Shown: positions 7,502 to 53,256, counted from the first letter of the stretch. The stretch: DNA of 64,000 bases from a virus (IMGVR_UViG_3300049136_000131:5323-69322), one strand, 5' to 3'. The notes: generated from the sequence alone by a model not told the origin. Numbers and translations: made by a program.

Positions 7502-7906
7502 TCAGTGCGGCAGCACGTCGTCGAGGAAGTGCTGCACCGGTTCGTAGAGGCCGTAGGGCACCAGGCCGGGGATCTCCTCGTGCCGCGCCCACACGACCTG
7601 GTCGAGCTCGTCCTCGTCCGCGACGTGCGCCGTACCCGAGACCACCTCGCAGGCCGTGTACGCCATGAACTTCCCAGACTTCGGATGCACCCGGTCGCCG
7701 ATGTACTTCACGGGCTTCACTGTCAGGCCCGTCTCCTCGAGCGTCTCCCGCACTGCCGCCTCCTCGGCGGTCTCACCCTCCTCGACACCGCCAGCCGGGA
7801 ACTGCCAGGACAACTCGCCTTCCTTCACGCGGCGGCGCACCATGAGAACGCGCTCCCCGTCGGTGATGATCGCGGCGGACACGTCAGGCTTCGTCGTCTC
7901 GGTCAT
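7502..7906 (-). CDS. Nudix hydrolase (canonical box), pSAM2 Pif-like
   Basis: GGVEEGETAEEAAVRETLEETGL fits Gx5Ex7REUxEExGU. Confidence 0.9.
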   Translation of the reverse strand: MTETTKPDVSAAIITDGERVLMVRRRVKEGELSWQFPAGGVEEGETAEEAAVRETLEETGLTVKPVKYIGDRVHPKSGKFMAYTACEVVSGTAHVADEDELDQVVWARHEEIPGLVPYGLYEPVQHFLDDVLPH

Positions 7907-8541
7907 ACGGTTGCCTCCAGGGCGTTCAAAATCGGCGGATAGATGCGGTCGGTGGGGATGAAGCGGCTGAGCTCCCCTATCGGGGCCCACGCCACGGCGA
8001 CGTTCTCGGAGGAATCCCCGTTGACTGCCTCGCCGTGCACAAAGTCGCAAAGGAAGTAGTCGCAGATAGCGCGCGTCCGAGGGTGGAGCCGTTCACCCAG
8101 GTGTTCGCGGACCATGCAGTGCACGCCGGTCTCGTCCAGGGTCTCCCGGACCGCGACCTTCGACGCCGAACCGCCCGGCTTCACAATCCCCGCAGGGAAC
8201 TGCCAGGCAATGTCGTCGCCGTCCTGCCTGCACACAAGCAGCACGTCATCACCGCGGCGGACCACGGCGATCGCCACCCTGAGAGCCTGCGCCTGCGGCT
8301 CAGGCATGGCTGCCCGCGACAAATGGATGAAACGCCGGCGCACCGCATCACCTGCCATTCTGTAAGCCGTCGCCAGGATTCGTTGCGTGTCCGGCTGGGG
8401 CACCATTGCCGGGTTCGCACGCCATGACGCGACGCTGCGTACCGACACCCCGAGCTTTCCCGCGAACTGCTCCTGGGTCATTTCGAATGCGTCTTGGAGC
8501 CGGGCGGCTTTCTCCCCGGTCCACTGCTGCACTTCGTCCAC
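7903..8541 (-). CDS. XRE-type HTH fused to a degenerate Nudix domain
   Basis: MTQEQFAGKLGVSVRSVASW HTH; GIVKPGGSASKVAVRETLDETG box lacks conserved Glu residues. Confidence 0.85.
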   Translation of the reverse strand: MDEVQQWTGEKAARLQDAFEMTQEQFAGKLGVSVRSVASWRANPAMVPQPDTQRILATAYRMAGDAVRRRFIHLSRAAMPEPQAQALRVAIAVVRRGDDVLLVCRQDGDDIAWQFPAGIVKPGGSASKVAVRETLDETGVHCMVREHLGERLHPRTRAICDYFLCDFVHGEAVNGDSSENVAVAWAPIGELSRFIPTDRIYPPILNALEATV

Positions 8542-8683: not shown

Positions 8684-8689
8684 CCTCGG

Positions 8690-8944: not shown

Positions 8945-8950
8945 GACGTG

Positions 8951-8979
8951 AGAGTACGGGCGATCCGACGCCCACTCAA
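8951..8979 (-). promoter_or_regulatory. HrdB-type promoter TTGAGT-N17-TACTCT with palindromic spacer
   Basis: -10 ends 7 nt before ATG 8944; GGGCG-ATCCGA-CGCCC inverted repeat in the spacer. Confidence 0.65.
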
Positions 8980-9008
8980 GGCACGGCTAGAACAGTTGTG
9001 TTGGGCGC

Positions 9009-9037
9009 TTGACTCGTCCCATCGAGACCTCTACGGT
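9009..9037 (+). promoter_or_regulatory. HrdB-type promoter TTGACT-N17-TACGGT for the transfer operon
   Basis: Consensus-like hexamers, 17-nt spacer, divergent from the repressor promoter. Confidence 0.65.
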
Positions 9038-9197
9038 CGTACCAGTCGCCCTTCAAGGCAGCATCTTGAAGGCGGCTACGTCGTCCACTCCTACCGGACC
9101 CAGTCCGCGGGCGGCACACAAATGAAGATCGGGCCGGACACCGCGACTCCTACATCGCAGGCCGGCCCTAACCACCAGGTTCTGTGAAGGAGACCCT

Positions 9198-9677
9198 GTG
9201 GCTACCACCGATCTTATCGGCACGCTCCAGCGTGCCGACCGCGAGGGCAACACCGCCCCGCTGCCGTCGGCCGCTGCTACGGCGCTGGCAGAGCTGATCC
9301 CGCATTTCCCGCTGGTGCAGGCCGTTGCCGAGTACGAGACGGCGGCCGTGCACGCCGCGCAGCTGGCTGGCCTCGCCGAGTCGGGCCGCATGTCGGATCT
9401 CGACGCGGACAGCCTGGCCACCGCCGAGGACCTGATGGCCGCCGCCCGCGCCACCCTGGCCGCCGCCGGCCGTCTCGACCTGATCGACGACCCGTCCCTG
9501 AAGGTCGCCCGCTACCGGGAGCTGTCGGCGACGATCGACCGGCTGTCGTCGCGGGAGTCGCACTACATGGCCCCGGACGACTGGAACGCCCTGCACAGCG
9601 CGCAGGAGGAGCGGGCCCGGCTGCACTTCGAGTTGAAGCGCGCCGGCCAGATGCACCTGATCGAGGCCGCGTCGTGA
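9198..9677 (+). CDS. hypothetical protein, first gene of the transfer-like operon
   Basis: AAGGAG RBS, GTG start. Confidence 0.7.
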   Translation: MATTDLIGTLQRADREGNTAPLPSAAATALAELIPHFPLVQAVAEYETAAVHAAQLAGLAESGRMSDLDADSLATAEDLMAAARATLAAAGRLDLIDDPSLKVARYRELSATIDRLSSRESHYMAPDDWNALHSAQEERARLHFELKRAGQMHLIEAAS

Positions 9678-9838
9678 GCGCCCGCGTGATCCTGGCCGAC
9701 TTCCCGGCTGGCGGCCCGCGTGGGTCGTGGCCGGCGGAGGAGAAGGCCGCCGAACTCACCGCGCAGGGCCAGCCCGCCACCGTCCGCATGGACCTCGACC
9801 GCGACCGGTTCGTGGTCGTCCCGGACGCCGAGTCGTGA
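9674..9838 (+). CDS. small hypothetical protein
   Basis: GTGA overlaps; VILADFPAGGPRGSWPAEEKAAELTAQG...RFVVV. Confidence 0.55.
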   Translation: MSARVILADFPAGGPRGSWPAEEKAAELTAQGQPATVRMDLDRDRFVVVPDAES

Positions 9839-9963
9839 GCCCCGCCGAGCAGGGCGCTGCGGCGAAAGCGCTGGCCTCGCAGACCCGACAGCACATGGAG
9901 GCCGCGAAGGCCGCCGCCGCTGCCGCTGAGGCCGCCCGCCGGGCCGCCGAACAGCAGCGCTAA
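9835..9963 (+). CDS. very small Ala-rich protein
   Basis: GTGA overlap, high GC3. Confidence 0.4.
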   Translation: MSPAEQGAAAKALASQTRQHMEAAKAAAAAAEAARRAAEQQR

Positions 9964-10060
9964 CCCCAAGCCGCCGCGGGTGGCGGTGTCCGCCCCCGTC
10001 CCGCCGCCCGCGGCTTCCCACCCCACTTCATCCCGGCATGACCAACCGAGGAGATCAGCC

Positions 10061-10291
10061 ATGCGTTTTTCCCGCCGCCAGTTGACCGAGCTTGCCGAGG
10101 ATCGCGAGAAGTCCGCGGCCCGCAGTGAACGCGCTGCCGCATCCGCCGAGCGTGACGCGGCCGCCGAGTCCCTCAGCCCGGCGACGCGTCGCCAGGCGGC
10201 CGCCCAAGCGCCGATCTCCCGGCGCTTCGCCCGCGAATGCCGAGAGGAAGCTTCCGCCTACCGCGCTGGCTACCAGCCCGACCAGATCTGA
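10061..10291 (+). CDS. hypothetical protein
   Basis: GAGGAG RBS. Confidence 0.55.
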   Translation: MRFSRRQLTELAEDREKSAARSERAAASAERDAAAESLSPATRRQAAAQAPISRRFARECREEASAYRAGYQPDQI

Positions 10292-10336
10292 CCCCACCCC
10301 TTTCCCGCCCCACCTGACCAGTGAGGAACCACCGCC

Positions 10337-10576
10337 ATGTCTCCGTACCTGTTCTCCGCCGACCTGGGCCGCACCGAGATCGGCCTGAAGGCCCGCACGA
10401 TCACCACGGTCGCCGAGGCGCTCGCGATGAGCATCACCGACTTGTTCGCCGAGTACGCCGACGCCCGCCAGGCCGCCGACCTGGCCCGCATGGAGTCGAT
10501 CCGCGACCACGCCACCCGGCTCGACGCCTCGCTGCTGGCCGAGCTGGACGGCTTCGACTACCCGGCCGCCGCCTAA
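10337..10576 (+). CDS. hypothetical protein
   Basis: GAGGA RBS, high GC3. Confidence 0.65.
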   Translation: MSPYLFSADLGRTEIGLKARTITTVAEALAMSITDLFAEYADARQAADLARMESIRDHATRLDASLLAELDGFDYPAAA

Positions 10577-10656
10577 CCCCCCGATACCGCCGCCGCGCGG
10601 TCGTCTACCCCCCGTCCCGCGCGGCGGCACCCAACCCAACCGAGAGGAGCCCGTCA

Positions 10657-10851
10657 GTGGGCCTGTTCAGCAAGGCGGCCGATTCCGCCGCCGCCAGCAT
10701 CGCCCGCGCCGGCCAGAAGATCGCCGGAGACAAGGGCGTCAACGCCGCCAACAAGGTCACCGGCCCGCTGCTCGGCCGCCGCTTCGAGCGCTGCTCCAAG
10801 GCGTGCGGGCACTGCAACGTGCCCTGCGTCAACGGCACCTGCAACCACTGA
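10657..10851 (+). CDS. small protein with Cys-rich C-terminus
   Basis: GAGGAG RBS; CSKACGHCNVPCVNGTC. Confidence 0.6.
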   Translation: MGLFSKAADSAAASIARAGQKIAGDKGVNAANKVTGPLLGRRFERCSKACGHCNVPCVNGTCNH

Positions 10852-10880
10852 TCATTCCGACACCCAACTGAGAGAAAGAC

Positions 10881-11066
10881 ATGTACACCGGATCAGCCGA
10901 CGAGTTGCGGGCGAAGACCGCCCGAAGCCAGGACATCGGCCGGAAGATCGCCGCCTTGCTCAACGAGGCGGAGCAGATCGCCCAGGGCTCGGTCGCCGCG
11001 CAGGTGCAAGGGCTCGGGTTCACCATCAGGCGCCGCGGCAGCGGCTTCACCGCCGACACGAGGTGA
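10881..11066 (+). CDS. hypothetical protein
   Basis: GAAAG RBS, coupled to next ORF. Confidence 0.6.
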   Translation: MYTGSADELRAKTARSQDIGRKIAALLNEAEQIAQGSVAAQVQGLGFTIRRRGSGFTADTR

Positions 11067-11245
11067 TCGGCTTGCCGACCTGGGAGTTCACCGCCACCTC
11101 GAGTACCGGGCAGCCCGTCAACCCGGTCACCAAGGCGCCGACCGACACGATCACCGTCTACAGCCAGGCCGATCTCGACCGGCGGATCGCCGCCGCGAAG
11201 ACGGACCCGCGGCAGATAGACGTCACCGTCCGCCGCATCAACTGA
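11063..11245 (+). CDS. hypothetical protein
   Basis: GTGA overlap, GAGG RBS. Confidence 0.6.
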   Translation: MIGLPTWEFTATSSTGQPVNPVTKAPTDTITVYSQADLDRRIAAAKTDPRQIDVTVRRIN

Positions 11246-11276
11246 CCAGTCCGCACCTGAAGGGATTTGATCCGCC

Positions 11277-12662
11277 ATGACTGCCAGCCCGCCGAAGGTG
11301 AACGGCCAGGCTCGGCCGCCCGCCCCGCCCGTGCTGGGGGACTGGCAGCCCATAGAGGCCACCCCCACCCAGGCCGACACCCCCACCGACACCCAGCCTG
11401 CCGAGACCCAGGCCGACAGCGACCTCGTCGCCCAGGCCAAGGCCGAAGCGATCCGTGCCCAGGCGTGGGCCGACTCCGAGAAGCAGCGCATCGCCGCCGA
11501 GGCGAAGAAGGAAGCCGAGCTGAAGCTGGCCGAGGCTGAGGCCGAAGCCATCCGTATCAAGGCGGAGGAAGACGCCCGTAAGCTGCGGCTCGCCAACGAC
11601 CGCGCCGAGCGCAAGGCCCGCGAGGAGGAGGCCGCCTCCAGCGCGCGGATCGCCGAGCACAACCGGCGCCGCGAGGAAGCCGACCGCGCCCGCGAGGCAG
11701 CGGCGCGGCAGGCCAAGGAACAGCAGCAGGCCGAGACCGCAAACGCCGAGGCCGTCGAGAAGTCCAGCAAGCGGTGGCGGAACGTGGCCCTGGGCTTCTA
11801 CGCCCTGTGCGCCGCCGTCGCCCTGCCCGTACAGATGGCAGCCTTCTACGACCCGAACGCTGAGTACCTGCTCGTCGCCCCGGTGTTCATCGAGGTGATC
11901 GCGCTCGTCGCCCTTGTCGGTGCCGCCGCGGCGGTCACGGACGGGCGCCCGCAGTGGCACTACCGGCTCGTCGCCTGGGTCGGCGCCCTGACCGCCGCGA
12001 CCATCAACATCGTTCACGGCCTTGACGCGTTCGACCCGGCGACCGCGTTCGGCACCGCCCTCGCATCGATCGCCGGCCCTGGCATGTGGGACCTCCACGA
12101 GCACGGCCGCATCCGGAAGCGCGACGGCAAGCCGACGTGGCGCGAGCGGTGGGCCGCGAAGAAGGCGGCCGAGGCGGAAGCCAAGCAGAAGGCTGTCGAA
12201 GAGTCGCGGCGTGCTGCCGAGAAGGCCGCCGCGGAGAAGGCCGCCGCAGAGGCTGCGGAGCAGCTTGCCAATGCTCGCGCCGAAGAGTTCCCGGACGTGT
12301 GGGACGAGGCCGAGAAGATCGCTGCGGCGGTCGGTGAAGTCACCGTCACCGAGGCCGTGTGGAAGCGCGCTTACCGCAACATCAAGGGTTGCGAGCCGGG
12401 CGAATCCATCGAGTCCATCACCGCCCGCCGCAAGGCCGAAGCGCGCGTCGAATCAGCCCTCAACGGCACCCCCGTCAACACGGTCAGCAAGACCACGAAC
12501 GCGCAGCGTGCGATCCAAATGAACAACTCCCCGCGCCGGTCCGCCTACAAGCCCGTTCCGCCGCGCCGAACGCCTGGCGACACAGCCCCGTATCACCCCC
12601 TCGCTCGCCGTGCGAACGGGGAAACGAAGCGCCGCCTGAACGCCGCCAAGAACGCCCGCTAA
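11277..12662 (+). CDS. SpdB2/DUF2637-like plasmid spread membrane protein
   Basis: Long Ala/Glu coiled coil, four hydrophobic segments ending GPGMWDLHEHG, basic C-terminus; upstream of FtsK-like gene. Confidence 0.65.
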   Translation: MTASPPKVNGQARPPAPPVLGDWQPIEATPTQADTPTDTQPAETQADSDLVAQAKAEAIRAQAWADSEKQRIAAEAKKEAELKLAEAEAEAIRIKAEEDARKLRLANDRAERKAREEEAASSARIAEHNRRREEADRAREAAARQAKEQQQAETANAEAVEKSSKRWRNVALGFYALCAAVALPVQMAAFYDPNAEYLLVAPVFIEVIALVALVGAAAAVTDGRPQWHYRLVAWVGALTAATINIVHGLDAFDPATAFGTALASIAGPGMWDLHEHGRIRKRDGKPTWRERWAAKKAAEAEAKQKAVEESRRAAEKAAAEKAAAEAAEQLANARAEEFPDVWDEAEKIAAAVGEVTVTEAVWKRAYRNIKGCEPGESIESITARRKAEARVESALNGTPVNTVSKTTNAQRAIQMNNSPRRSAYKPVPPRRTPGDTAPYHPLARRANGETKRRLNAAKNAR

Positions 12663-12686
12663 CCCATCCCCTGGAGTGATCAGACT

Positions 12687-13148
12687 ATGAACGCCACCCT
12701 TCGCCGTCTCGCCGTGTCGTCCGCCGCTGCTGTCGCGCTCGTCGGAAGCGCCGCCACCGTCACCACCGCCGAGGCCGCCGAGCACGAGGCGACCGTCGTC
12801 GCCATCGCCCGCACCGACACCCAGCCCAGCCTCACCAACGGCCTCACCCCCGACAGCGCCGGCAGCGGCGCCCAGCTGCAGAGCCCCGTCACCCAGATCC
12901 CGGCAGGCACCCAGCAGCAGATCCAGACCCAGGCGTCCGGCGGGGCGATCGGTGCTGGCGTGGTCGCCATCCTCGTCCTCGGGATCATCGTGTTCGTCCG
13001 CGTGAAGCACCGCGACATCAAGCCCGGCGACGCGGTTTTGGTCGGCCTGTTCGGCATCGCCCTGTCCGGCACGGTCGTCGGCGCCATGGGCGACCAGCTC
13101 ACCGACTCCGTCGTCAGCTCCCTCGGCAACGTCCTCAGCGGCCTGTAA
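12687..13148 (+). CDS. Spd-like membrane protein with signal peptide
   Basis: N-terminal signal sequence plus two C-terminal TM helices; adjacent to TraB-like gene. Confidence 0.6.
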   Translation: MNATLRRLAVSSAAAVALVGSAATVTTAEAAEHEATVVAIARTDTQPSLTNGLTPDSAGSGAQLQSPVTQIPAGTQQQIQTQASGGAIGAGVVAILVLGIIVFVRVKHRDIKPGDAVLVGLFGIALSGTVVGAMGDQLTDSVVSSLGNVLSGL

Positions 13149-13208
13149 CCCCACGACCCCCGCGGGGCCCCACCAGGGCCCCGCCCCTCATCTGGAAGGA
13201 CATGGCCA

Positions 13209-15467
13209 GTGGCCACCGAGACCGAGCCCATCGAGCAGCAACCCGCCGAGGCGACAGCCGTCGAGGCCGCTGAGCCCAGCCGTGGCGACCGCGCCAAGGC
13301 CGCCTTCAAAGAACAGCGCAACCACATGACCGCCCGTACCCGCGACTGGCTGGGCGGCGGCGACATCGACCAGGTCACCGCCATCCAGATCGCCACCGAG
13401 AAGAAGACGCGCAAACACACCGAGCGCCTCGCCCACCAGCAGCGCATCGTCGCCGAAGCCCACGGCCGACTCTCCCACGCCAAGGCACGGTCCGAAGCCG
13501 GCGAACCCATCAACGCCGGAACGCTCGCCACCCTCGCAGGCCGCGTCGCCGCCGAAGAGTCCCGGCTTGCCGAACTACAGGCACAGCCCGTCCTGCCCCC
13601 GACCGACCGTGAGATCAACGCCGCCCGCACCAGCAAGAAGGCCGGGCGCGCCGCGATCCTCGCAGGCGGCGGCTTCGCCTCCCTGCCCGTCCTCGGCACC
13701 GCCATAGAGCAGGCCGCCACCGGGCAGCCCATGCTCCTCGCCGCCCTCGGCACCGCCGCCGGCTACGGCTGGTACCTGATCTCGCGCCCCTTCACGGCCC
13801 GCAGCGCCCAGGGGGTGGAAGTCCCTTTCGTGACCACCCCGACCGGCAACCTGCCCGCCACGTTCCAGGCGGACCCGGCCGGGGGCACAGTGGTGATGCC
13901 CGGAACGAGCGGCGTCGTCATGTCCGTCGAGCAGCTGCCCGAAGGCGCCAAGCCGTACCCCATCCGGAACGCGCGCACGCCTGACCAGCTCGCCGAATGC
14001 GTGCTGCTCGCGGCCCACGCCGAGAACGTGCCGATCGTCGAGGTGTCGGACGTGCAGCGGCAGCCGTGGGGCTGGCAGTGCACCGTCCGTGTCGGTGAAG
14101 GTACCCCCGAAGCGATCATCGAGAAGAGTGGCGACCTGGAGACCAGGTTCGACCTGCCCACCAACGGCGTCAGGCCGCAGCCCCTCAAGGCTCGCCGCGC
14201 CTGCGCCATCCTGCGCCTCGTCGACGGCAACCCGTTCGCCACCGCCCCTGGCCTGCCTTACCGGGCCCCGAAGTCGATGTCGATCACCGACCGGTTCCGC
14301 ATCGGAACCAGCGTCGGCGGTGACCCGCTTGAACTGTCCCTGGCCGGTGTCATGGGCCTGTGGGTCGCGGCCTCGGGTGGCGGCAAGACCGGCATCCTCC
14401 AGGCGCTCGCCGAGGGCACCACCGCCTGCCGGGACAACATCACCATCGACCTCGACCCGCACGGGGATGGCCTCGAAGACTTGGGGGACTGCGTGCGGAT
14501 AACCGCTCGCACCAACGAGCAGATCGAAGCCGTCCTGCTGTTCTTCCTGGTCATGTCGAAGGCGCGCGCTCGGCTGAGGCAGAAGCTCGGCATGGGCAAG
14601 AAGTGGAAGGCCAGCGCCTCCCACCCTGCGGTCACGATCTTCTTCGACGAGTTCCCGAAGGCCACCGAACTCGCAAAGAAGCTGGCGTTCGACCTGCTGC
14701 TCGTCGGTCGCAAGGAGCTCATCGAGGTCGAGATTGCCTCCCAGGGAGGACAGAAGGGCTACCTGGGGGAGAACTTCGCGCAGATGGTCGCCCTCAAGGC
14801 TGTCGGCCCGTGCAAGGTCGGCGACACCCGCGCCGTGTTCGGCGACGGCGCCGTCAAGGAGGGTTACCTGCCGCACAAGCTGTCCCCGGCCACCGCCACC
14901 GACCCCAAGGACGCCGGCCACATCTACATCCAGGGTGTGCCTGGCATGGCCGACGAGCCGATCGAGTACGCCATCCACGAAACCCCGTCCGCGGTCCTGC
15001 GGCAGCTCGCCGAGGAACGCCTGGCTGCTGGCCTGCTCGACCCGGATCAGGACAGTCTCGACGCGATGAAGGGCGTGGACCTGCCCGAGTACGTCGAGCC
15101 GGTCTGGGACAGCGAAGGAAACCTCAAGAAGTCGGCGCCGGTGTCGCTCCTGACCTGGGAGCAGCTGCTGCGGCTGTGCGGTGCCGAGCCGCCTGCGGGA
15201 TCGGACCTCACGGACGGCCCTGCGCGGGCCGCGGTCGAGGATTCGGTTGCCGTCATGGAGAAGGCGGGCGTCGACCGCATGAAGACGGAGACGCTGCTCC
15301 TAGCGCTCCGCGAGTACGACCCGGACGCCTACGGCGAGATGTACGCCGATGAGCTGAAGGCCCTCCTGAAGGAGGCAGGTGCCGGGTCGCCGATCACGCT
15401 TGGTCCGATCGGTGAAGAGAAGAACCCGCGCGGGTTCAAGCGCGATCGGCTGCGCCATCTTCTGTGA
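13209..15467 (+). CDS. traB: FtsK/SpoIIIE-type conjugative DNA translocase (TraB/TraSA-like)
   Basis: 752 aa; TM pair, Walker A AASGGGKT, DLDPHG, Walker B IFFDE, C-terminal helical domain. Confidence 0.75.
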   Translation: MATETEPIEQQPAEATAVEAAEPSRGDRAKAAFKEQRNHMTARTRDWLGGGDIDQVTAIQIATEKKTRKHTERLAHQQRIVAEAHGRLSHAKARSEAGEPINAGTLATLAGRVAAEESRLAELQAQPVLPPTDREINAARTSKKAGRAAILAGGGFASLPVLGTAIEQAATGQPMLLAALGTAAGYGWYLISRPFTARSAQGVEVPFVTTPTGNLPATFQADPAGGTVVMPGTSGVVMSVEQLPEGAKPYPIRNARTPDQLAECVLLAAHAENVPIVEVSDVQRQPWGWQCTVRVGEGTPEAIIEKSGDLETRFDLPTNGVRPQPLKARRACAILRLVDGNPFATAPGLPYRAPKSMSITDRFRIGTSVGGDPLELSLAGVMGLWVAASGGGKTGILQALAEGTTACRDNITIDLDPHGDGLEDLGDCVRITARTNEQIEAVLLFFLVMSKARARLRQKLGMGKKWKASASHPAVTIFFDEFPKATELAKKLAFDLLLVGRKELIEVEIASQGGQKGYLGENFAQMVALKAVGPCKVGDTRAVFGDGAVKEGYLPHKLSPATATDPKDAGHIYIQGVPGMADEPIEYAIHETPSAVLRQLAEERLAAGLLDPDQDSLDAMKGVDLPEYVEPVWDSEGNLKKSAPVSLLTWEQLLRLCGAEPPAGSDLTDGPARAAVEDSVAVMEKAGVDRMKTETLLLALREYDPDAYGEMYADELKALLKEAGAGSPITLGPIGEEKNPRGFKRDRLRHLL

Positions 15468-15489
15468 CCGTTATGCGTGTAATGCCTAG

Positions 15490-15627
15490 CTGATCGGTAG
15501 CTGATCGGAGTCGATTCCTGAACAAACCTGCAGGTCACGGCCGCTCGGTCGGCTGATCTCAACCTGATCGGAGTCTGCTTCGAGCGGACGGCGATCAGAC
15601 CATGGAGCGCGCCTGACCTGCAGGTTT
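15490..15627. repeat. candidate clt (cis-acting locus of transfer)
   Basis: CTGATCGG at 15490, 15501, 15564; variants at 15553 and inverted at 15591; inverted repeat CAAACCTGCAGGTCA/TGACCTGCAGGTTTG; directly downstream of traB. Confidence 0.55.
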
Positions 15628-15690
15628 GCCAGCCGAGCGCTGCCGATCGCCAAGAACAAACCATCACATACCCGGAAACGGAGACCTCTC

Positions 15691-16092
15691 ATGCCCAAGA
15701 CCTGGAAGCCTGGCGATGCCAAGCGATTCGCCCGCGATGTCCGCCTCGGCACCCCGTACTACTTCGTGTACGACGTCGCCCGGAATGCCGCGCCTTACGA
15801 GGACGCCCGCCTGTACAGCGAGATCGTTTTCGACCGGCATGCCCCGCTCACCGGCACGCCCATGGCGGGCAGCATGTCCGCCGTCCGCCTCTGCCAGACC
15901 TACGGCCCCATCTACGACCAGCCGCCCGCCGGCATGCGCAACGTCGCCGGTCCCGGCCCGCAGGTCGGTGCGCCGCTCGGCGACAACTACGAGGCCGTCC
16001 TCGACGAGGCCGAACTCCGCGGCCTGGAGAAGCACGTCGCGAACGGCAGTGACCCCGCCAAGCGCCGCCCGCTCAACAGCCGACGGCCGTAG
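15691..16092 (+). CDS. hypothetical protein of transfer region
   Basis: GGAG RBS, high GC3. Confidence 0.7.
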   Translation: MPKTWKPGDAKRFARDVRLGTPYYFVYDVARNAAPYEDARLYSEIVFDRHAPLTGTPMAGSMSAVRLCQTYGPIYDQPPAGMRNVAGPGPQVGAPLGDNYEAVLDEAELRGLEKHVANGSDPAKRRPLNSRRP

Positions 16093-16183
16093 CTGAGCCG
16101 GGGCGCCCCTCGAATGCCTGCCAGCGACCCAGGGGCGCCCCTTCCCTCCAGCCCGATCAAGACCAGACGTGGAGACCCTCATC

Positions 16184-16369
16184 ATGCCCCAGCCCATGAC
16201 TGACCAGGAGTGGGAGGCCCAGAACGGCAACCTCTCACCCGACGAAGCCAGAGCCCGCGGACTGTGCTGGTGCTGCCAAGGCCGCACCGTCCTGTACACC
16301 GCGTTCGGCGGCGTCCAGCGCAAGGTGCCCTGCCCGGAGCACTGCGACAACGGCAAGGCCCGCCGATGA
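16184..16369 (+). CDS. small zinc-finger protein
   Basis: CWCC...CPEHC; ATGA overlap with next gene. Confidence 0.6.
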   Translation: MPQPMTDQEWEAQNGNLSPDEARARGLCWCCQGRTVLYTAFGGVQRKVPCPEHCDNGKARR

Positions 16370-16869
16370 CCACCCTCGTCACGGCTCCGCCCGCCGCAGA
16401 CCTCGACTTCGACACCCGCCTCGTCCTGCGAGCCGCCGAGATGACCGTGCGGCTCGACCAGGCCGCGGTCGCCTTCGCGATCAACACGGCCCACCTTCCC
16501 GGCTCCGACCCGAGACCCCTCGTCGTCGAGCCAGCAACCCTGCAGCTCACGCCCACCCTGGCGCCCTGCCCGTACAACACGACCGCAGGCCTGCTGCACC
16601 GAGCCCGTGCCCGGATCGAGACGGACGGCTGGTGCCGTGACGCCCTGTTCGACGAGTCCGGTGCCATCTGCCCCATCCGTGCGATCCGTCTCGAAGCCGC
16701 CACACGGGACCAGGCCGACGACGCGTGCGTGCTGCTCCTCGAAGCGATCCAGCGCGACTTCCGCGACGCCGAAACCATCCCGTCATGGAACGCCGCGCAG
16801 ACCAGCCCAGCCCCGGTCCTCCTCGCCTTCGACAGGGCCGCCACTCTCGCCCACAACCGCGATCAGTAA
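16366..16869 (+). CDS. DUF6197-like protein
   Basis: GWCRDALFDESGAICPIRAIR...IPSWN motif. Confidence 0.6.
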   Translation: MTTLVTAPPAADLDFDTRLVLRAAEMTVRLDQAAVAFAINTAHLPGSDPRPLVVEPATLQLTPTLAPCPYNTTAGLLHRARARIETDGWCRDALFDESGAICPIRAIRLEAATRDQADDACVLLLEAIQRDFRDAETIPSWNAAQTSPAPVLLAFDRAATLAHNRDQ

Positions 16870-16879
16870 GGAGCCTGCC

Positions 16880-28750: not shown

Positions 28751-28849
28751 GGAACCGCCGCACTGCGCATCGGCGTTGGAGCAGTAGAACCCCGGCGAGT
28801 GCTGGAACACTCCCGGGGCGCGGCCGACCCTGAACCAGACAGGACCGAC

Positions 28850-29404
28850 ATGACCCAGGCTATGCGAGCCTGCCCATACTGCGGCGACACCATGACGAAC
28901 GTCAGGCGCAAGCAGTGCGGCAAGCCCGACTGCAAGCGCGCCTTCAACGCCGAGCGCATGCGCAAGTGGCAGCGCCAGTACCAGGCTGAACACGGCCAGT
29001 GGTACACCAGCCACAAGCACGGTGAGGCGCAGCGCGCGTACCACCGACAGAGGCGTGAGGAGCTTGGCCACTGGCGACAGCTCTACCCAGCTGCCGCAGC
29101 GGCCTACGATGCGCGCCGACGGATGAGGGTCGAGCAGGCAAGCCAGGGTGAGCCCGTCGTGCCGGCCGACGTACACGCCAGGGACGGATGGACATGCCAG
29201 CTATGCGGTCTACCCATCGACCCTGAGGTCGCATGGCCAGACCCAATGAGCGCATCAGTGGATCACATCGTTCCGCTCGCGCTTGATGGTGCGCACAGCA
29301 TGGCCAACGTGCAGAGCGCCCACCTCGGCTGCAACAGCCGCAAGTCCGCCCGCCTGACGATCACCGCTGCCCACCAGGAGCCAGCTCCCGACCTGGGGGG
29401 ATGA
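28850..29404 (+). CDS. free-standing HNH endonuclease, homing type
   Basis: N-terminal CPYC/CGKPDC; RDGWTCQLCGLPID..SVDHIVPLALDGAHSMANVQSAHLGCNSRK. Confidence 0.85.
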   Translation: MTQAMRACPYCGDTMTNVRRKQCGKPDCKRAFNAERMRKWQRQYQAEHGQWYTSHKHGEAQRAYHRQRREELGHWRQLYPAAAAAYDARRRMRVEQASQGEPVVPADVHARDGWTCQLCGLPIDPEVAWPDPMSASVDHIVPLALDGAHSMANVQSAHLGCNSRKSARLTITAAHQEPAPDLGG

Positions 29405-29470
29405 TCCCCTCCCCGCCGATCTTGGGGAATCGGGGCCGTGTAGCTCTCGACTGTCTGTACGGGTTCCCAA
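29395..29470. other. candidate cos / genome-end region
   Basis: Non-coding GGGGGATGATCCCCTCCCC..ATCGGGGCCGTGTAG..CTGTACGGG between HNH and terS; + strand shifts from C/A-rich to G/T-rich here. Confidence 0.5.
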
Positions 29471-29594
29471 GGCCGCTGACCTGCGGTGATGCGAGCCGGC
29501 CTGGCAGCCCGCTCGGCTTCAGTAGCATCACAGAGCAGTAACGGTGCAGGTGAATGGCCTGTAGCCGTAACGTCTGACCCCCTAGACTGGCGTC

Positions 29595-30233
29595 ATGACC
29601 GAGACCGCCCGCCGCACTGAGTGTGAGGAGTGCGCTGGTCCGATGCCGTTGCTGGCTCGGGCGGACGCGCGGTTCTGCTCCTCTGCATGCCGGCAGGCCG
29701 CGTACCGGGAGCGGCGCCGCGCCGAGCGTGAGCGTGTGGAGGGTGAGCGGGCTGCGCGGGTTCCGGCCGAGCTGACGGAACGTCCGCGGTGGGTGCGGTA
29801 TTCGTCGCGGAAGGTGCCGCTGCGGGTGGATGGTCGTTTCGCTTCGGTGGATGACCCGTCGTCGTGGTCGGACTTCCCGGCCGCGGTGAAGGCGAAGGCC
29901 GGCGAGGGTATCGGCTTCGTGCTGACGGCTGGTGACGGCATCGTCGTCGTGGACCTGGACCACGCCGTGCAGGGCGGCCGTGTCTTGCCGTGGGCTCAGG
30001 CGATCGTCGACCAGTTGCCCGCGACGTACATGGAGCGTGGCCGGTCGGGGACTGGCCTGCATCTGTGGTTCCGCGGTGCGGTCCCGCACGGCCGGCGTAT
30101 CCGGCGGGGGGAGTTGGCGGTCGAGTTCTACTCGGATCGCCGCTACATGATCGTTGGCGACCGTGTGGGCGGTACGCCTCTTGAGCTTGCCGAGCTGCCT
30201 GATGCAGCCGGCGTGATTGCCTCGCTTCTGTGA
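29595..30233 (+). CDS. primase-polymerase (AEP/NrS-1-like) domain protein with N-terminal zinc finger
   Basis: GIGFVL..VVVDLDH, YMERGRSGTGLHLWF motifs; CEEC..FCSSACRQAAYR. Confidence 0.7.
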   Translation: MTETARRTECEECAGPMPLLARADARFCSSACRQAAYRERRRAERERVEGERAARVPAELTERPRWVRYSSRKVPLRVDGRFASVDDPSSWSDFPAAVKAKAGEGIGFVLTAGDGIVVVDLDHAVQGGRVLPWAQAIVDQLPATYMERGRSGTGLHLWFRGAVPHGRRIRRGELAVEFYSDRRYMIVGDRVGGTPLELAELPDAAGVIASLL

Positions 30234-30316
30234 CGCCCGGGCGGTGTCCCTGATCGGGGCGCTGTTCCTCAGCCCTTCGCGCGCCCTGGTGGCGTGCTCT
30301 GACCCTGGAGGTCGTC

Positions 30317-30754
30317 ATGGGCGCACATGGACCGATCCCGAAGCGCAGCGAGGAGCGTCGTCGCCGGAACAAGGACGACGGGCCCGAGCTGCTGCAGGCC
30401 CCGTCGGGGCCGCCTGAGGATCTGCCTGAGCTTCCCGAGCCTGACCCGTTGTGGCATCCGATTGCGGTCGACTGGTACCTGTCTCTGCGGGAGTCGGGGC
30501 AGGCCGCGTTCTACGAGCCGTCGGACTGGGCTGTGGCCCGGTACGCGGCGGACCTGATGTCGAAGGTGCTGCTGTCGGAGCGCGGGCCGAACGGCCAGCT
30601 GGTGGCCGCATTGAACTCGGTGATGTCGTCGCTGCTGACGACTGAGGGCGATCGACGGCGGGCCCGCATGGAGCTCGAGCGGAAGAAGCCTTCCGGCCCG
30701 CAGTTGGCGTCGGTGAGCCCGCTGGACTCGTACCGTGACATCGCAGGGGGCTGA
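30317..30754 (+). CDS. terS: terminase small subunit
   Basis: GPIPKRSEERRRRNK, WHPIAVDWY..SGQAAFYEPSDW, LLTTEGDRRRARMELER. Confidence 0.85.
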   Translation: MGAHGPIPKRSEERRRRNKDDGPELLQAPSGPPEDLPELPEPDPLWHPIAVDWYLSLRESGQAAFYEPSDWAVARYAADLMSKVLLSERGPNGQLVAALNSVMSSLLTTEGDRRRARMELERKKPSGPQLASVSPLDSYRDIAGG

Positions 30755-30755: not shown

Positions 30756-31007
30756 GTGGTCAAGTACGTTGTCTGCGCGGGTAGCCAGGCGGAGGCGCAG
30801 GCCTGGGCCCGGCTTCACGATATCCCGCAGCAGCAATGCCTGTACGCCAGCTCGCTGAGGCGGATCGAGGGTCTTCGCGACTTCGCCGTGGTCCGGTTGC
30901 GAGGCTTCTTCGACCGGCCGGATCGGGGCGAGATTGAGGCATGTCTGCTGCGCAACGAGCTGAAGCGGCGTTCGCCGCTGAACGACCGTCGCGGCGATGG
31001 AGTCTGA
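30756..31007 (+). CDS. hypothetical protein between terS and terL
   Basis: GTG start just after the terS stop; overlaps terL start. Confidence 0.45.
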   Translation: MVKYVVCAGSQAEAQAWARLHDIPQQQCLYASSLRRIEGLRDFAVVRLRGFFDRPDRGEIEACLLRNELKRRSPLNDRRGDGV

Positions 31008-32730
31008 CGAGCAGGTCCCCGACGTTGTCGAGCCGTTCACGCTCGGGCCGACGTGGAAGCGCGGCCCGGACGGCAAGTTCATCCTGCCTGAGTACACGCT
31101 GGGCTGGCAGTGCCTGGCGTGGACGAAGACGTACCTGCAGCACTACGTCGGGAAGCCGTGGCAGTACACGCCCGAGCAGGCGCGCCTGACGCTGTGGTGG
31201 TACGCGATGGATCCGGAAACGAACCGGTTCCTGTGGCGTGACGGCGTTATTCAAAGACTGAAGGGCTGGGGCAAGGACCCGCTGGTGGCAACTTGGTCGG
31301 CGTTCGAGTTCGTCGGCCCGTGCCGGTTCGGCGAGGTCGCGGACGAGGGCAACGAGTGGGGCGTGCCCGCCGGACAGCCTCTCGGGATGCAGCACCCGGC
31401 AGCTTGGGTGCAGATCGCGGCCGTCAGTCAGGATCAGACCCGGAACACCATGACGCTGTTCCCTTCGATTCTAACGAAGCGGGCAATCAAGGAATATCGC
31501 ATTGACCTCGGCAAGGAGATCATCTACGCCGATAAAGGGCGAGCCCGAATTGAGGCTGTGACGTCGTCGCCGCGGGCACTTGAGGGTGGCCGACCGACGT
31601 TCGTGTCGTTGGGGGAGACGCACCACTGGGTGGAGTCGAACCAGGGGCACGAGATGGCGGCCGTGATCGAACGCAACGCCACCAAGTCGGCGGACGGTCA
31701 GGCGAGGACGCTAGCGAACACCAACGCCTACGAGCCCGGCGAGGACTCGGTGGCGGAGCGGACCCGGGAAGCGTTCGAGTCCGCGGAATCCGGGCGCGCG
31801 GCTGACGTCGGTCTGTTCTACGACAGCCTGGAAGCGCCCGCCGAGGCCAGGTTGACGCGGGAATGGATCCGGCCGACGCTTCTCGCGGTCCGCGGGGATT
31901 CGATATGGCTAGACATCGAACGGCTGGAGGCGTCGATTCTCGACGTTCGCAACCCGCCATCGCGATCGCAGCGATTCTGGTTCAACCGAATCGTGGCGGC
32001 TGAGGACGCGTTCCTAGCCCGCTACGAGTGGGACGCCAATCCGCATGAAGGGCTCGACCTGGAGGCGGGGGACGATCTGGTGCTGTTCTTCGACGGCTCG
32101 AAGTCAGATGACGCCACTGCTCTGGTTGGGTGTCGGATCCGGGATGGGTTCTTGAAGACGCTGGGTGTGTGGCAGCGGCCCGCGAACTGGCCAGGCGACC
32201 AGCCTTACCGGGTGCCACGGGATCAGGTTGACGGAGTCGTCGATAGCGTCTTTTCCCAGTACAAGCCCCTGGCGTTTTTCGCGGACCCTGGCGCCGGCTA
32301 CGACGAGGCTGACGGCGAACGGTACTGGGATGGCTACATCGACGCGTGGGCGCAGCGCTACGGCAAGCGTCTGAAGCTGAAGGCCGTGCCGTCCGGGCAC
32401 GGGCAGCACGCGGTGATGTGGGACATGGGCGATCGACGCCGACAGCAGGTGTTCACGGAGGCGGTGGATCGCTTCTACCGGGACGTCTTGGAGCGGCAGG
32501 TACCGCATGACGGGCACAAGGTACTGCGGCAGCACGTCTCGAACGCGCGACGTCGGACGAACGCGTGGGGTTACACGATCGGCAAGGAGCACCGCGATTC
32601 AGCCCGAAAAATCGACCTTGTGGTGTGTGCAATCGGGGCACGGATGCTACGCCGCATGGTCTTGAACTCGCCTTCTTGGGCCAAGCGTTCGAAGGCCACA
32701 GGCAAGGGGAGGGTGGTGGTGCTGCGATGA
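30997..32730 (+). CDS. terL: terminase large subunit
   Basis: QRLKGWGKDP, AAVSQDQT, GETHHW, FFDGSKSDDATALV, KIDLVV. Confidence 0.95.
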   Translation: MESDEQVPDVVEPFTLGPTWKRGPDGKFILPEYTLGWQCLAWTKTYLQHYVGKPWQYTPEQARLTLWWYAMDPETNRFLWRDGVIQRLKGWGKDPLVATWSAFEFVGPCRFGEVADEGNEWGVPAGQPLGMQHPAAWVQIAAVSQDQTRNTMTLFPSILTKRAIKEYRIDLGKEIIYADKGRARIEAVTSSPRALEGGRPTFVSLGETHHWVESNQGHEMAAVIERNATKSADGQARTLANTNAYEPGEDSVAERTREAFESAESGRAADVGLFYDSLEAPAEARLTREWIRPTLLAVRGDSIWLDIERLEASILDVRNPPSRSQRFWFNRIVAAEDAFLARYEWDANPHEGLDLEAGDDLVLFFDGSKSDDATALVGCRIRDGFLKTLGVWQRPANWPGDQPYRVPRDQVDGVVDSVFSQYKPLAFFADPGAGYDEADGERYWDGYIDAWAQRYGKRLKLKAVPSGHGQHAVMWDMGDRRRQQVFTEAVDRFYRDVLERQVPHDGHKVLRQHVSNARRRTNAWGYTIGKEHRDSARKIDLVVCAIGARMLRRMVLNSPSWAKRSKATGKGRVVVLR

Positions 32731-34983: not shown

Positions 34984-35044
34984 GCAAGGGTCGCCCTGGT
35001 GGCGGCCGTTCCCATTTCCACAGCCCCTGGAGGGCCGATTCGTC

Positions 35045-35686: not shown

Positions 35687-35698
35687 AAGAGGTAGACC

Positions 35699-45413: not shown

Positions 45414-45422
45414 GGAGGTCGT

Positions 45423-47648: not shown

Positions 47649-47651
47649 TCG

Positions 47652-49342: not shown

Positions 49343-49350
49343 GAGGCCCC

Positions 49351-49971: not shown

Positions 49972-49985
49972 ACCATCCTGCCCAC

Positions 49986-50005
49986 GCCCCTGAACGGGGC
50001 TTTTT
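49986..50005 (+). terminator. intrinsic terminator between tail and lysis genes
   Basis: GCCCC-TGAAC-GGGGC-TTTTT. Confidence 0.6.
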
Positions 50006-50027
50006 CTATGCCCAGAAAGGGGGCCCC

Positions 50028-53254: not shown

Positions 53255-53256
53255 CT

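What the first reader, a model, noticed from the sequence alone, without database searches (positions are those of the whole stretch)
9009..16092. TraB/Spd mycelial conjugation module inside an apparently intact siphophage genome
Seen: an operon with a DUF2637/SpdB2-like protein, an Spd-like membrane protein, a 752-aa FtsK-type ATPase (AASGGGKT, IFFDE) and a downstream repeat locus. It lies on the same strand as, and continuous with, phage early and late genes, with no junction or att site visible. Known: Streptomyces plasmids and AICEs transfer dsDNA through TraB acting at clt; plasmid-phages such as pZL12 are a precedent for having both routes. Inference: a dual-route element that spreads by virions and by hyphal conjugation, with pSAM2-like Nudix/GntR control. 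This class is poorly characterised.
Basis: partly seen in the sequence, partly recalled or inferred. Interest (0 to 1): 0.8.

Follow-up and report, generated by a model that had tools for sequence, protein, structure and literature searches.

The report
Conjugation-type DNA pump inside Streptomyces prophage
A temperate tailed phage of Streptomyces carries, as a conserved built-in part of its genome, the plasmid-style DNA pump (TraB), its repeat-rich DNA target and membrane helper proteins, so it may also move between hyphae without making virus particles; this function was not tested here.

Summary
The anatomy holds up. Window 13209-15467 encodes a 752-aa membrane-anchored FtsK-type ATPase. 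Pfam and NCBIfam miss it, but a 50-sequence profile hits solved FtsK motors (E 4e-16) and its AlphaFold model matches them (E 4e-13).

Directly after its stop codon lies a repeat and palindrome array built on CTG[A/C]TC[A/G]. It is conserved and 10-40-fold enriched at that position in relatives, as expected of a clt. Upstream are a multi-pass membrane protein (SpdB-like by leads only; the DUF2637 model does not match) and a small membrane protein.

The module sits between early and late genes of a complete siphophage gene set. It is not a nested AICE:
- The same order recurs in 18 IMG/VR contigs and 21 Streptomyces genome loci.
- A capsid gene lies 10-26 kb downstream of traB in 12 of 15 genomes.
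- In S. griseoflavus JCM 4479 one 89.1-kb element holds both traB and the virion genes. It has 104-bp att repeats and one adjacent integrase.
- In S. acidicola a collinear element forms a perfectly periodic 89.9-kb concatemer.

Transfer itself is inferred, not shown. pZL12 is the known precedent, so I rate this a new variant of a known kind. Other first-reader notes on this window touch the same clt and Nudix genes.

The parts
7502..7906 (-). Nudix hydrolase, divergent from the transfer operon
   Evidence: NCBIfam Nudix families at 8e-14. Conserved upstream of the module in 6 of 18 IMG/VR loci.
7903..8541 (-). HTH + Nudix fusion protein, overlapping the start of the Nudix gene above
   Evidence: Pfam NUDIX 1.1e-14, HTH_3 weak at 0.0033. 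Conserved together with its partner gene.
9198..9677 (+). First gene of the transfer/spread operon (159 aa, no family)
   Evidence: GC3 0.92. No Pfam or NCBIfam hit. Homologues lie at the same place in 5 IMG/VR loci and in S. griseoflavus.
9674..11245 (+). Small ORFs of the operon (9674-9838, 10337-10576, 10881-11066, 11063-11245), variably conserved
   Evidence: GC3 gene calls. No family hits. Patchy conservation across loci.
11277..12662 (+). 461-aa coiled-coil, multi-pass membrane protein; SpdB/SpdB2-like by leads only
   Evidence: Hydrophobic helices at 170-216 and an invariant core W167-I279. An 86%-identical homologue is named 'SpdB2 protein' and others 'DUF2637' by UniRef. 1 of 20 homologues hits DUF2637 at 2.6e-4. 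Atlas score 0.79 to SpdB_N clusters, a lead only. The protein itself has no DUF2637 match.
12687..13148 (+). 153-aa protein with signal peptide and two TM helices (small Spd-like membrane protein)
   Evidence: Translation and hydropathy. Conserved directly upstream of traB in most loci.
13209..15467 (+). TraB-type FtsK/SpoIIIE-family dsDNA translocase (752 aa): N-terminal helices with a membrane anchor, ATPase motor, C-terminal helical DNA-binding-like domain
   Evidence: phrog_12531 at 3.4e-68. Profile vs PDB FtsK at 4e-16. AF2 pLDDT 87.7. Foldseek FtsK motor at E 4e-13. hhalign to SCP2 TraA at E 7e-6.
15468..15690 (.). clt-like cis site: CTGATCGG / CTG[AC]TC[AG] repeats, direct and inverted, inside a 51-nt imperfect palindrome framed by ACCTGCAGGT
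   Evidence: Homologous arrays with 8-15 motif copies lie at the same position in relatives.
15691..16092 (+). Conserved 133-aa protein of unknown function immediately after the clt-like site
   Evidence: Present after traB in 17 of 18 IMG/VR loci. No family and no usable Atlas hit.
16100..16141 (.). Perfect 11-bp inverted repeat (GGGGCGCCCCT, 20-nt loop) after the 133-aa gene; possible operon end
   Evidence: I16. Not recognised by the terminator scan.
16169..16869 (+). 66-aa Cys-rich ORF and a DUF6197 protein, the same family as the gene that follows traA in plasmid SCP2
   Evidence: Pfam DUF6197 at 4e-17. 45% identity to SCP2.19c, which lies directly downstream of traA.
28799..30754 (+). 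HNH endonuclease (28799-29404), a 212-aa ORF, and the small ORF ahead of the terminase (30449-30754): packaging region, likely cos end
   Evidence: phrog HNH at 8.5e-21. The linear record of relative pNBC_01369 ends exactly between its HNH and this ORF's homologue.
30997..36652 (+). Terminase large subunit, portal, scaffold, HK97-type major capsid protein
   Evidence: phrog_9 at 3.7e-72, phrog_104 at 6e-138, phrog_4708 at 1.4e-15, phrog_10 at 3.8e-42.
40989..51014 (+). Tape measure protein, tail proteins, endolysin
   Evidence: phrog_4197 at 2.7e-130. phrog_16363, phrog_1887 and endolysin phrog_1493.
57089..58225 (+). Tyrosine recombinase (the only recombinase seen in the record held), 41 kb from the transfer module
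   Evidence: Pfam Phage_integrase at 2.3e-14 plus the SAM-like N domain. No att-like repeat found beside it.
63734..64000 (-). Short GntR-type wHTH regulator whose start codon is the last base of the record
   Evidence: Pfam GntR at 1.1e-14. Record end reads ...CAT.

Best explanation
Window 9198-16869 is the DNA-transfer/spread module of a roughly 70-90 kb temperate Streptomyces siphophage. The module is a stable, inherited part of that phage lineage.

Proposed mechanism, by analogy with plasmid TraB systems. When the prophage is present as a double-stranded circle (excised or extrachromosomal), the membrane-anchored TraB ATPase assembles on the CTG[A/C]TC[A/G] repeat array that lies just 3' of its own gene. 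It then pumps the unprocessed double-stranded genome into a neighbouring hypha or hyphal compartment. The multi-pass membrane protein and the small membrane proteins encoded upstream would help the DNA pass across septa. The divergent Nudix pair (or a GntR in relatives) would regulate or limit transfer. The element would therefore have two routes: virions, and cell-to-cell DNA translocation.

Shown here: FtsK-type fold and intact ATPase motifs; the conserved repeat array at the canonical clt position; conserved synteny inside phage genomes; and, in a relative, a single att pair around the whole element.

Inferred: DNA binding at the repeats, pore formation, the direction and biological role of translocation, and the roles of the membrane and Nudix proteins.
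For: ATPase identity:
- Walker A and B present and invariant.
- Family profile hits FtsK motors 2IUS and 2IUU at 4e-16 and 1.6e-13.
- AF2 model has pLDDT 87.7. Best folds are FtsK motor, TcpA coupling protein and EccC.
- Hydrophobic helix or helices at 148-192.
- Remote homology to SCP2 major transfer protein TraA (hhalign E 7e-6), and 30-46% identity to genes on 47 Streptomyces/Kitasatospora plasmids.

clt-like site:
- Three CTGATCGG in 82 bp, against 7 in 64 kb.
- The same architecture in all 15 IMG/VR relatives examined.
- The motif is 3-15 copies in the 223 bp after the traB stop, against 0.25-0.49 expected, in 14 of 15 genome loci.
- Published clt sites are likewise 5-9 bp direct repeats plus inverted repeats next to or overlapping the 3' end of tra (PMC3583192).

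Context:
- DUF6197 gene downstream, as in SCP2.
- Module order conserved in 18 IMG/VR and 21 genome loci.
- 7 of 8 near-complete viral records with this traB carry an HK97 capsid gene, including a 61-kb record with direct terminal repeats.
- A capsid gene lies 10-26 kb downstream in 12 of 15 genomes.
- In S. griseoflavus an 89.1-kb element with 104-bp att repeats and one adjacent integrase holds both traB and the virion genes.
- In S. acidicola a collinear element forms a perfectly periodic 89,881-bp contig, i.e. a circular or concatemeric form.
- Relative pNBC_01369 has a very divergent FtsK-like Tra gene at the syntenic place.

Against: - No functional data of any kind.
- Curated models for FtsK_SpoIIIE and DUF2637 do not match.
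- The C-terminal winged-helix assignment rests only on secondary-structure order in the full-length model. The isolated-domain model was too poor to search (pLDDT 51).
- The motif count in this window is low (4) compared with most relatives (8-15).
- 35%-identical, membrane-anchored homologues sit in virulent 131-kb phages among tRNA genes, with no spd or clt context. This ATPase clade therefore need not mean conjugation.
- No plasmid partition genes in the 69 kb held.
- The record is a trimmed piece of an 89.6-kb metagenome contig, so its ends and physical state are unknown.
Confidence: 0.6

Rival explanations
1. The module serves the phage inside one mycelium only. It would move replicating or lysogenising phage DNA across hyphal cross-walls, or into prespore compartments, so that infection or lysogeny spreads through a multicellular host. 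It would not mediate mating-type transfer between different mycelia.
For: Related FtsK-like ATPases with N-terminal membrane helices are standard genes of virulent 131-kb Streptomyces phages, which have no plasmid or integrative state (89 records). Spd-type functions in plasmids are themselves about intramycelial spread (PMC4447253, listed; abstract only read). The element already has an efficient inter-cell route, its virions.
Against: The full plasmid-type set is present: tra, a clt-like array at the 3' end, membrane proteins, Nudix genes and a DUF6197 gene as in SCP2. In plasmids the same TraB drives both entry into the recipient and spreading. The two readings are not exclusive.
Confidence: 0.25
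2. The ATPase has a different phage job, such as takeover of host chromosome segregation or sporulation, superinfection exclusion, or help with genome processing. The repeats would then be an origin, a partition site or a regulatory site rather than a clt.
For: Papers on Streptomyces phages list FtsK/SpoIIIE-like genes next to WhiB-like developmental regulators without an assigned function (PMC13587820). No curated TraB or FtsK model matches. Iteron-like repeat arrays also mark origins.
Against: The array sits exactly where clt sites sit, and it co-travels with traB across head-module swaps. Membrane proteins are co-operonic. Homologues lie on many Streptomyces plasmids.
Confidence: 0.1
3. A separate AICE or plasmid fragment inserted into a prophage, or joined to it by misassembly of a metagenome. 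It would have its own att, int and rep, so the co-location would be accidental.
For: The window comes from a metagenome contig. AICEs are common in Streptomyces and carry tra, spd, Nudix and GntR genes (PMC2440964, listed).
Against: No int or rep in or beside the module. No flanking direct repeats above chance and no compositional break. The same junctions occur in isolate genomes and 18 viral contigs. One att pair and one adjacent integrase bound the whole element in S. griseoflavus. Logan contigs of the run bridge 10290-23446 and 5001-10300 without differences, although they are from the same sample and so not independent.
Confidence: 0.03

Closest known systems
pZL12 / phiZL12 plasmid-phage of Streptomyces sp. 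9R-2 (Zhong et al. 2010, J Bacteriol 192:3747; known to me from its abstract and from citations in PMC3583192 and PMC4487206; the paper itself is not held)
   Same: One replicon carries both a full siphophage virion module and a Streptomyces-type conjugal transfer locus (a major tra gene plus adjacent genes). Size class is about 90 kb. Relatives of the present element are filed as 88-92 kb 'plasmids'.
   Different: pZL12 is an autonomous ParA/ParB plasmid. No partition genes are in the 69 kb held here, and close relatives are integrated prophages with att repeats and a tyrosine integrase. No sequence comparison with pZL12 was possible. The closest isolated phages share at most 41% portal identity.
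TraB/clt dsDNA conjugation system of Streptomyces plasmids (pSVH1, pIJ101, pJV1, pWTY27, SCP2)
   Same: Membrane-anchored FtsK-like ATPase. A cis site of short direct and inverted repeats at the 3' end of the tra gene. Membrane (Spd-type) proteins in the same operon. A DUF6197 gene after tra, as in SCP2.
   Different: Embedded in a phage genome. Sequence is too divergent for Pfam FtsK_SpoIIIE. The motif (CTG[A/C]TC[A/G]) differs from the published TRS and clt repeats (GACCCGGA from my own recollection of the pSVH1 literature, not in the papers read here; TGACACC and CCGCACA[C/G][C/G]). There is no detectable similarity to SCP2 Spd-region proteins.
AICEs such as pSAM2 and SLP1 (integrase + replication + TraB-type transfer + spd + Nudix Pif / GntR Kor)
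   Same: The integrated relatives combine att-flanked site-specific integration, a tyrosine integrase, TraB-type transfer genes and Nudix genes divergent from the transfer operon.
   Different: Five- to ten-fold larger, with complete virion, lysis and phage replication modules. There is no AICE-type rep next to tra. Any Pif-like role of the Nudix proteins is untested.
FtsK/SpoIIIE-like proteins of virulent Streptomyces phages (Karimac-like, Stanwilliamsviridae, about 131 kb)
   Same: Same ATPase clade (35% identity over residues 249-651, phrog_12531) with an N-terminal membrane segment.
   Different: 603 aa. They align only up to about residue 651 of the 752, so the last ~100 residues were not matched. 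They sit among tRNA genes without spd-like neighbours or a repeat array.

Membership tests
FtsK/SpoIIIE-type dsDNA translocase superfamily | RecA-like motor domain with Walker A and Walker B, and the fold of the FtsK alpha/beta motor | tested here: met
   GGGKT and FFDE are invariant. Profile vs 2IUS at 4e-16. Foldseek 6T8G and 2IUT at E 4e-13, TM by target 0.65-0.68 over about 430 columns.
FtsK/SpoIIIE-type dsDNA translocase superfamily | Match to the curated Pfam model FtsK_SpoIIIE (PF01580) | tested here: not met
   No hit at E<=0.01 for the protein and none at E<=10 in six frames of the record. NCBIfam also has none.
Streptomyces TraB (conjugative dsDNA translocase) | N-terminal membrane association | tested here: met
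   Hydrophobic segment 148-166 by hydropathy, and helices 133-170 and 174-192 in the model. Prediction only.
Streptomyces TraB (conjugative dsDNA translocase) | [quoted passage not shown] | tested here: inconclusive
   The full-length model shows the order H671-686, E690-692, H693-703, H713-722, then strands up to 744, at pLDDT of about 85-98 in most of this stretch. The isolated-domain model had pLDDT 51 and was unusable for fold search. No sequence match to a known wHTH.
Streptomyces TraB (conjugative dsDNA translocase) | Cognate clt: a cluster of short repeats at or next to the 3' end of the tra gene | tested here: met
   for the window. Conserved and 10-40-fold enriched in relatives. Binding was not tested.
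Streptomyces TraB (conjugative dsDNA translocase) | Mediates plasmid transfer and pock formation; hexameric pore | not testable with these tools
   Needs mating assays and biochemistry.
SpdB2 / DUF2637 spread proteins | Match to Pfam DUF2637 (PF10935) | tested here: not met
   None for the 461-aa protein and none in the record at E<=10. Only 1 of 20 close homologues reaches 2.6e-4. PF27080 SpdB_N is not in the library.
SpdB2 / DUF2637 spread proteins | Multi-pass membrane protein encoded in the tra operon | tested here: met
   The position directly upstream of traB is conserved. Source names 'SpdB2 protein' and 'DUF2637' on homologues, and an Atlas score of 0.79, are leads only.
Complete tailed temperate phage (siphovirus-type) | Terminase, portal, scaffold, HK97 capsid, tape measure, tail proteins, endolysin and recombinase in phage order | tested here: met
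   CheckV completeness is 100% as listed by IMG/VR. Holin and virion production were not tested.
AICE nested in a prophage | Own integrase, replication gene and flanking att repeats around a 9-24 kb unit | tested here: not met
   No int or rep in 7.5-20 kb. No repeats above chance. A single att pair encloses the whole 89-kb element in S. griseoflavus.
Phage-plasmid (pZL12 type) | Autonomous replication and partition genes; extrachromosomal state | tested here: inconclusive
   No ParB_N or ParA-type (AAA_31) match in the 69 kb held, but about 20 kb of the source contig is not visible. Relatives: pNBC_01369 has ParA and ParB; S. acidicola has a periodic contig; a 61-kb record has terminal repeats; others are integrated.

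The most novel reading that the evidence does not exclude
A widespread lineage of Streptomyces temperate phages, seen in at least 20 species-representative genomes, consists of true hybrids of prophage and AICE. One att-bounded element would use virions for long-range spread. It would use a TraB/clt pump for virion-independent, receptor-independent transfer into neighbouring hyphae and for spread through the mycelium. The related pumps of virulent Streptomyces phages would be a general phage adaptation to a septate, multicellular host.
Probability: 0.35. Interest if true: 0.8.

Novelty: new variant of a known kind. Interest (0 to 1): 0.6.

Why it matters
If the pump works as in plasmids, these prophages can enter strains that lack the phage receptor. 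They could lysogenise without lysis and carry cargo through soil Streptomyces populations by two independent routes. Here that cargo includes DNA-modification genes, a Ro60/TROVE gene with a tRNA-like RNA gene, Ku and glycosyltransferases.

This blurs the phage/AICE/plasmid categories used in mobilome surveys: the TraB here is invisible to Pfam-based conjugation finders. It also bears on an open question, how phages cope with a septate multicellular host.

It is directly testable, because culture-collection strains (S. griseoflavus JCM 4479, S. mirabilis JCM 4551, S. rishiriensis NBRC 13407) carry collinear elements. The only experimental precedent I know of is pZL12, and searches of the held literature found no description of TraB modules in integrated prophages.

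Tried and rejected
- The pZL12 paper (PMC2897331) is not held and pSLE1 (LN831788) is not in the plasmid collection. No direct comparison with pZL12 or pSLE1 was possible.
- blastn of the module against phages: no match.
- Pfam and NCBIfam on all module proteins: nothing except a weak 7TM match and weak TIGR01620/TolA matches.
- Single-sequence search of PDB with TraB: nothing useful. The family profile was needed.
- The separate AF2 model of the C-terminal 115 aa had pLDDT 51, too poor for a fold search.
- hhalign of the 461-aa protein family against SCP2.27c: no similarity.
- The Atlas gave nothing for the 133-aa protein.
- PF27080 is not in the library.
- The sigma-70 promoter and terminator scan over 7.4-17.4 kb was uninformative.
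- att-like repeats beside the window's own recombinase or tRNA-like gene: none above 15 bp.
- I looked for co-variation between the repeat motif variant and the TraB C-terminal sequence and saw none. The domain is nearly invariant while the motif varies around a CTGNTC core.
- Sequencing runs: the only holder is a soil-metagenome DNA run that is probably the source, and no RNA holder is listed. Its contigs show contiguity only, with a unitig break at 10290-10300 and minor-variant joints from related strains.
- Rfam at gathering thresholds: no hit in the window.
- Complex prediction was not used. No binding claim is made that a pass would change.

Full report
WHAT THE RECORD IS

The window is bases 5323-69322 of a 69,322-bp IMG/VR virus record. 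IMG/VR classes it 'provirus' with CheckV completeness 100%. The TraB protein of the window is on record on a contig of 89,645 bp. The only public run that holds the DNA is a soil-metagenome run that is probably its source.

The record's limits look artificial:
- Its last three bases are the start codon of a GntR gene on the minus strand.
- Its first bases lie inside an open frame that matches the C-terminal part of a phage replication-initiator family.
- There are no terminal repeats.

So about 20 kb of the element is not visible.

THE OBSERVATION

DNA is about 70% G+C, so I called genes by third-position G+C. A co-directional gene row runs from 9198 to 16869.

The 752-aa ORF (13209-15467):
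- It has AASGGGKT and IFFDE.
- Pfam, NCBIfam and a six-frame scan with PF01580 find nothing.
- It matches phrog_12531 'FtsK/SpoIIIE-like' at 3.4e-68.
- An exhaustive search found 232 cluster representatives at E<=0.001.
- A profile of 50 of them hits solved FtsK motors (2IUS 4e-16, 2IUU 1.6e-13) and then EccC and TcpA.
- K393, D480 and E481 are invariant.
- The AlphaFold model (pLDDT 87.7) has long N-terminal helices with a hydrophobic stretch at 148-192, an alpha/beta motor at 236-620, and a small C-terminal helical domain with two terminal strands.
- Foldseek puts FtsK motor structures first (E 4e-13, TM by target 0.65-0.68), then the pCW3 coupling protein TcpA.
- The profile is also remotely similar to SCP2 TraA, the major transfer protein of that plasmid (hhalign E 7e-6).
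- tblastn finds 30-46% identical genes on 47 Streptomyces/Kitasatospora plasmids.

Upstream proteins. The 461-aa protein (11277-12662) has coiled-coil arms and an invariant hydrophobic core. It does not match DUF2637, and only one of 20 close homologues does, at 2.6e-4. The support for 'SpdB2-like' is all lead-level: UniRef names on homologues, an Atlas score of 0.79 to SpdB_N clusters, and its place in the operon. The 153-aa protein (12687-13148) has a signal peptide and two membrane helices.

THE REPEAT LOCUS

In the 223 bp between traB and the next gene:
- CTGATCGG occurs three times within 82 bp, against seven in the whole window on both strands.
- There are degenerate and inverted copies and a 51-nt imperfect palindrome framed by ACCTGCAGGT.

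The strong evidence is comparative. In all 15 IMG/VR relatives examined, the same position holds a homologous array. It has 8-14 copies of CTGCTCA or CTGATCA in both orientations, framed by CCGCAGGTCAC...GTGACCTGC. In 14 of 15 Streptomyces genome loci the motif CTG[AC]TC[AG] occurs 3-15 times in the 223 bp after the traB stop, against 0.25-0.49 expected from the rest of each locus.

Published clt sites have the same make-up and position: 5-9 bp direct repeats plus inverted repeats, next to or overlapping the 3' end of tra, and bound by the Tra protein (PMC3583192).

The last 110 residues of TraB are nearly invariant across these loci while the motif varies around a CTGNTC core. I saw no helix/motif co-variation.

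IS IT PART OF THE PHAGE?

The window is phage-like on both sides.
- Early side: Mom-like and C5 methyltransferase genes and several phage families.
- Late side: HNH endonuclease, terminase, portal, scaffold, HK97 capsid, tape measure, tail proteins, endolysin and RNase H.
- There is no compositional step, no recombinase or replication gene near the module, and no flanking direct repeat above chance.

Relatives settle the question.
- The core order recurs in 18 IMG/VR contigs at 63-82% TraB identity: divergent Nudix pair or GntR, small ORFs, 461-aa protein, 153-aa protein, TraB, array, 133-aa protein, DUF6197.
- In two of those contigs the terminase is within 10 kb downstream.
- Of eight such records at least 90% complete, seven have an HK97 capsid gene. 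One of them is a 61,186-bp record with direct terminal repeats and a different head module.
- In species-representative genomes there are 21 loci. In 12 of 15 genomes tested, a capsid gene lies 10-26 kb downstream of traB on the same strand (with the coordinates).

S. griseoflavus JCM 4479 carries an element collinear with the window from the C5 methyltransferase to the TROVE gene. Its tail and transfer modules are 55-88% identical but its head module is swapped. The element is bounded by perfect 104-bp direct repeats 89.1 kb apart. These repeats are the 3' end of a rhamnogalacturonan lyase gene. Just inside the left repeat are a 469-aa tyrosine integrase, then a Gp3-like directionality-factor homologue and DnaB. 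Ordinary host genes lie outside. One att pair and one adjacent integrase thus enclose both traB and the virion genes.

In S. acidicola K1PN6 a collinear element forms a contig that is perfectly periodic at 89,881 bp, with two identical 22-kb copies. That indicates a circular or concatemeric free form.

Two records filed as plasmids (92 and 88 kb; ParA/ParB, type III PKS, tyrosine recombinase) share the late genes at 50-83% amino-acid identity. At the syntenic place they carry a very divergent FtsK-like Tra gene (hhalign E 7e-12). One of them is a linear record whose ends fall between the HNH and the pre-terminase gene, which suggests a cos end.

The sizes 89.1, 89.9 and 89.6 kb (the window's own contig) agree.

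MECHANISM AND RIVALS

The best reading is given under Best explanation: a TraB/clt/Spd-type module that lets the double-stranded phage genome pass between hyphae or hyphal compartments without virions. I put 0.6 on it.

The main reservation is that 35%-identical, membrane-anchored ATPases are standard in virulent 131-kb Streptomyces phages. There they sit among tRNA genes, with no membrane-protein neighbours or repeat array. Recent papers on Streptomyces phages list such genes without a function. The pump may therefore serve spread within one mycelium rather than mating (0.25), or another phage task (0.1). A nested AICE or an assembly chimera is very unlikely (0.03). Contigs of the holder run bridge the junctions, but they come from the same sample.

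REGULATION

Two overlapping Nudix genes, one fused to an HTH, are divergent from the operon. Six IMG/VR relatives have the same pair and three have a GntR there instead.

In this record the GntR is at the far end. If the record's two ends were joined, the GntR would be divergent from the long early operon. The likeness to pSAM2 Pif/KorSA is at family level only.

COMPARISON WITH WHAT IS KNOWN

pZL12 is the precedent for one replicon with both virions and a Streptomyces tra locus. I know it from its abstract and from citations.

The present lineage differs in three ways:
- It includes att-bounded, integrase-bearing prophages.
- No partition genes are visible.
- It has no close isolated phage relative (portal identity at most 41%).

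Searches of the held literature found no description of TraB modules in integrated Streptomyces prophages. I therefore rate it a new variant of a known kind, of moderate-to-high interest mainly because it is widespread and directly testable in culture-collection strains.

Other first-reader notes on this same window already flag the clt candidate and the Nudix pair. They are not independent evidence.

Noticed in passing
window 53080-54918: ARAGORN calls a tRNA-Asn(GTT) at 53080-53154, directly upstream of a TROVE/Ro60-like gene (53257-54918; Pfam TROVE 7.5e-16). Rfam gives no tRNA or any other hit at gathering score, so the 'tRNA' may be a tRNA-like module of a Y-RNA-type partner. The pair is conserved in the S. 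griseoflavus relative (tRNA-Asn-like at 236026-236100, TROVE 77% identical).
   Followed up: partly
window 59971-61517: A Ku beta-barrel protein (Pfam Ku 7e-44) is convergent with a DUF6233 gene. Relative pNBC_01369 has a DNA ligase next to its DUF6233 gene. This suggests an end-joining function for a cos-ended linear genome.
   Followed up: no
G020:C111 (S. acidicola K1PN6 NODE_1), loci L028/L033 and L045-L049: This 207-kb contig is perfectly periodic at 89,881 bp (10,119 of 10,119 compared positions identical; two identical 22,220-bp traB loci). That is 2.3 tandem copies of a phage collinear with the window, so a concatemer or a circular replicon.
   Followed up: yes
G017:C9 153263-153366 and 242370-242473 (S. 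griseoflavus JCM 4479), loci L050-L055: Perfect 104-bp att repeats formed by the 3' end of a rhamnogalacturonan lyase gene bound an 89.1-kb prophage. A 469-aa tyrosine integrase, a Gp3-like RDF homologue and DnaB lie in the left arm.
   Followed up: yes
L002/L003 (NZ_CP109578.1, Streptomyces sp. NBC_01369 'plasmid unnamed3', 92,397 bp, linear): The record's ends fall between an HNH endonuclease gene and the gene ahead of the terminase. The 'plasmid' may therefore be a cos-ended phage genome. It also has ParA/ParB, a type III PKS (PhlD), a tyrosine recombinase and a GntR divergent from a tra/spd-like operon.
   Followed up: partly
window 20639-24707: A block of tail-fibre-like genes lies upstream of the terminase, far from the tail module: Gp80-like, LtfC-like beta-sandwich, phrog_4013, and a 517-aa protein with phosphodiesterase-phrog and weak NlpC/P60 matches. 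It is present in S. acidicola, S. griseoflavus and some IMG/VR relatives but absent from pNBC_01369.
   Followed up: partly
L001 1-411 (record bases 1-411): The record starts inside an open frame whose end matches the C-terminal part of phage replication-initiator phrog_1408. The IMG/VR provirus boundary probably cuts a gene.
   Followed up: partly
window 252-893, L001 2550-4328, window 24722-25261, window 36652-37683: Several DNA- or virion-modification genes are present: a Mom-like protein, a 592-aa C5 cytosine methyltransferase, a small SAM methyltransferase, and a GT4 glycosyltransferase directly after the capsid gene.
   Followed up: no
L023 (Streptomyces phage Karimac, NC_048724, 74757-76568): Virulent 131-kb Streptomyces phages (89 records) encode a 603-aa membrane-anchored homologue of this TraB amid a tRNA array. 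Its function is unknown.
   Followed up: partly
window 55734-56456: A minus-strand gene with Pfam Hypoth_Ymh (1.9e-21) lies between the TROVE gene and the recombinase. It could be accessory cargo; its function was not examined.
   Followed up: no
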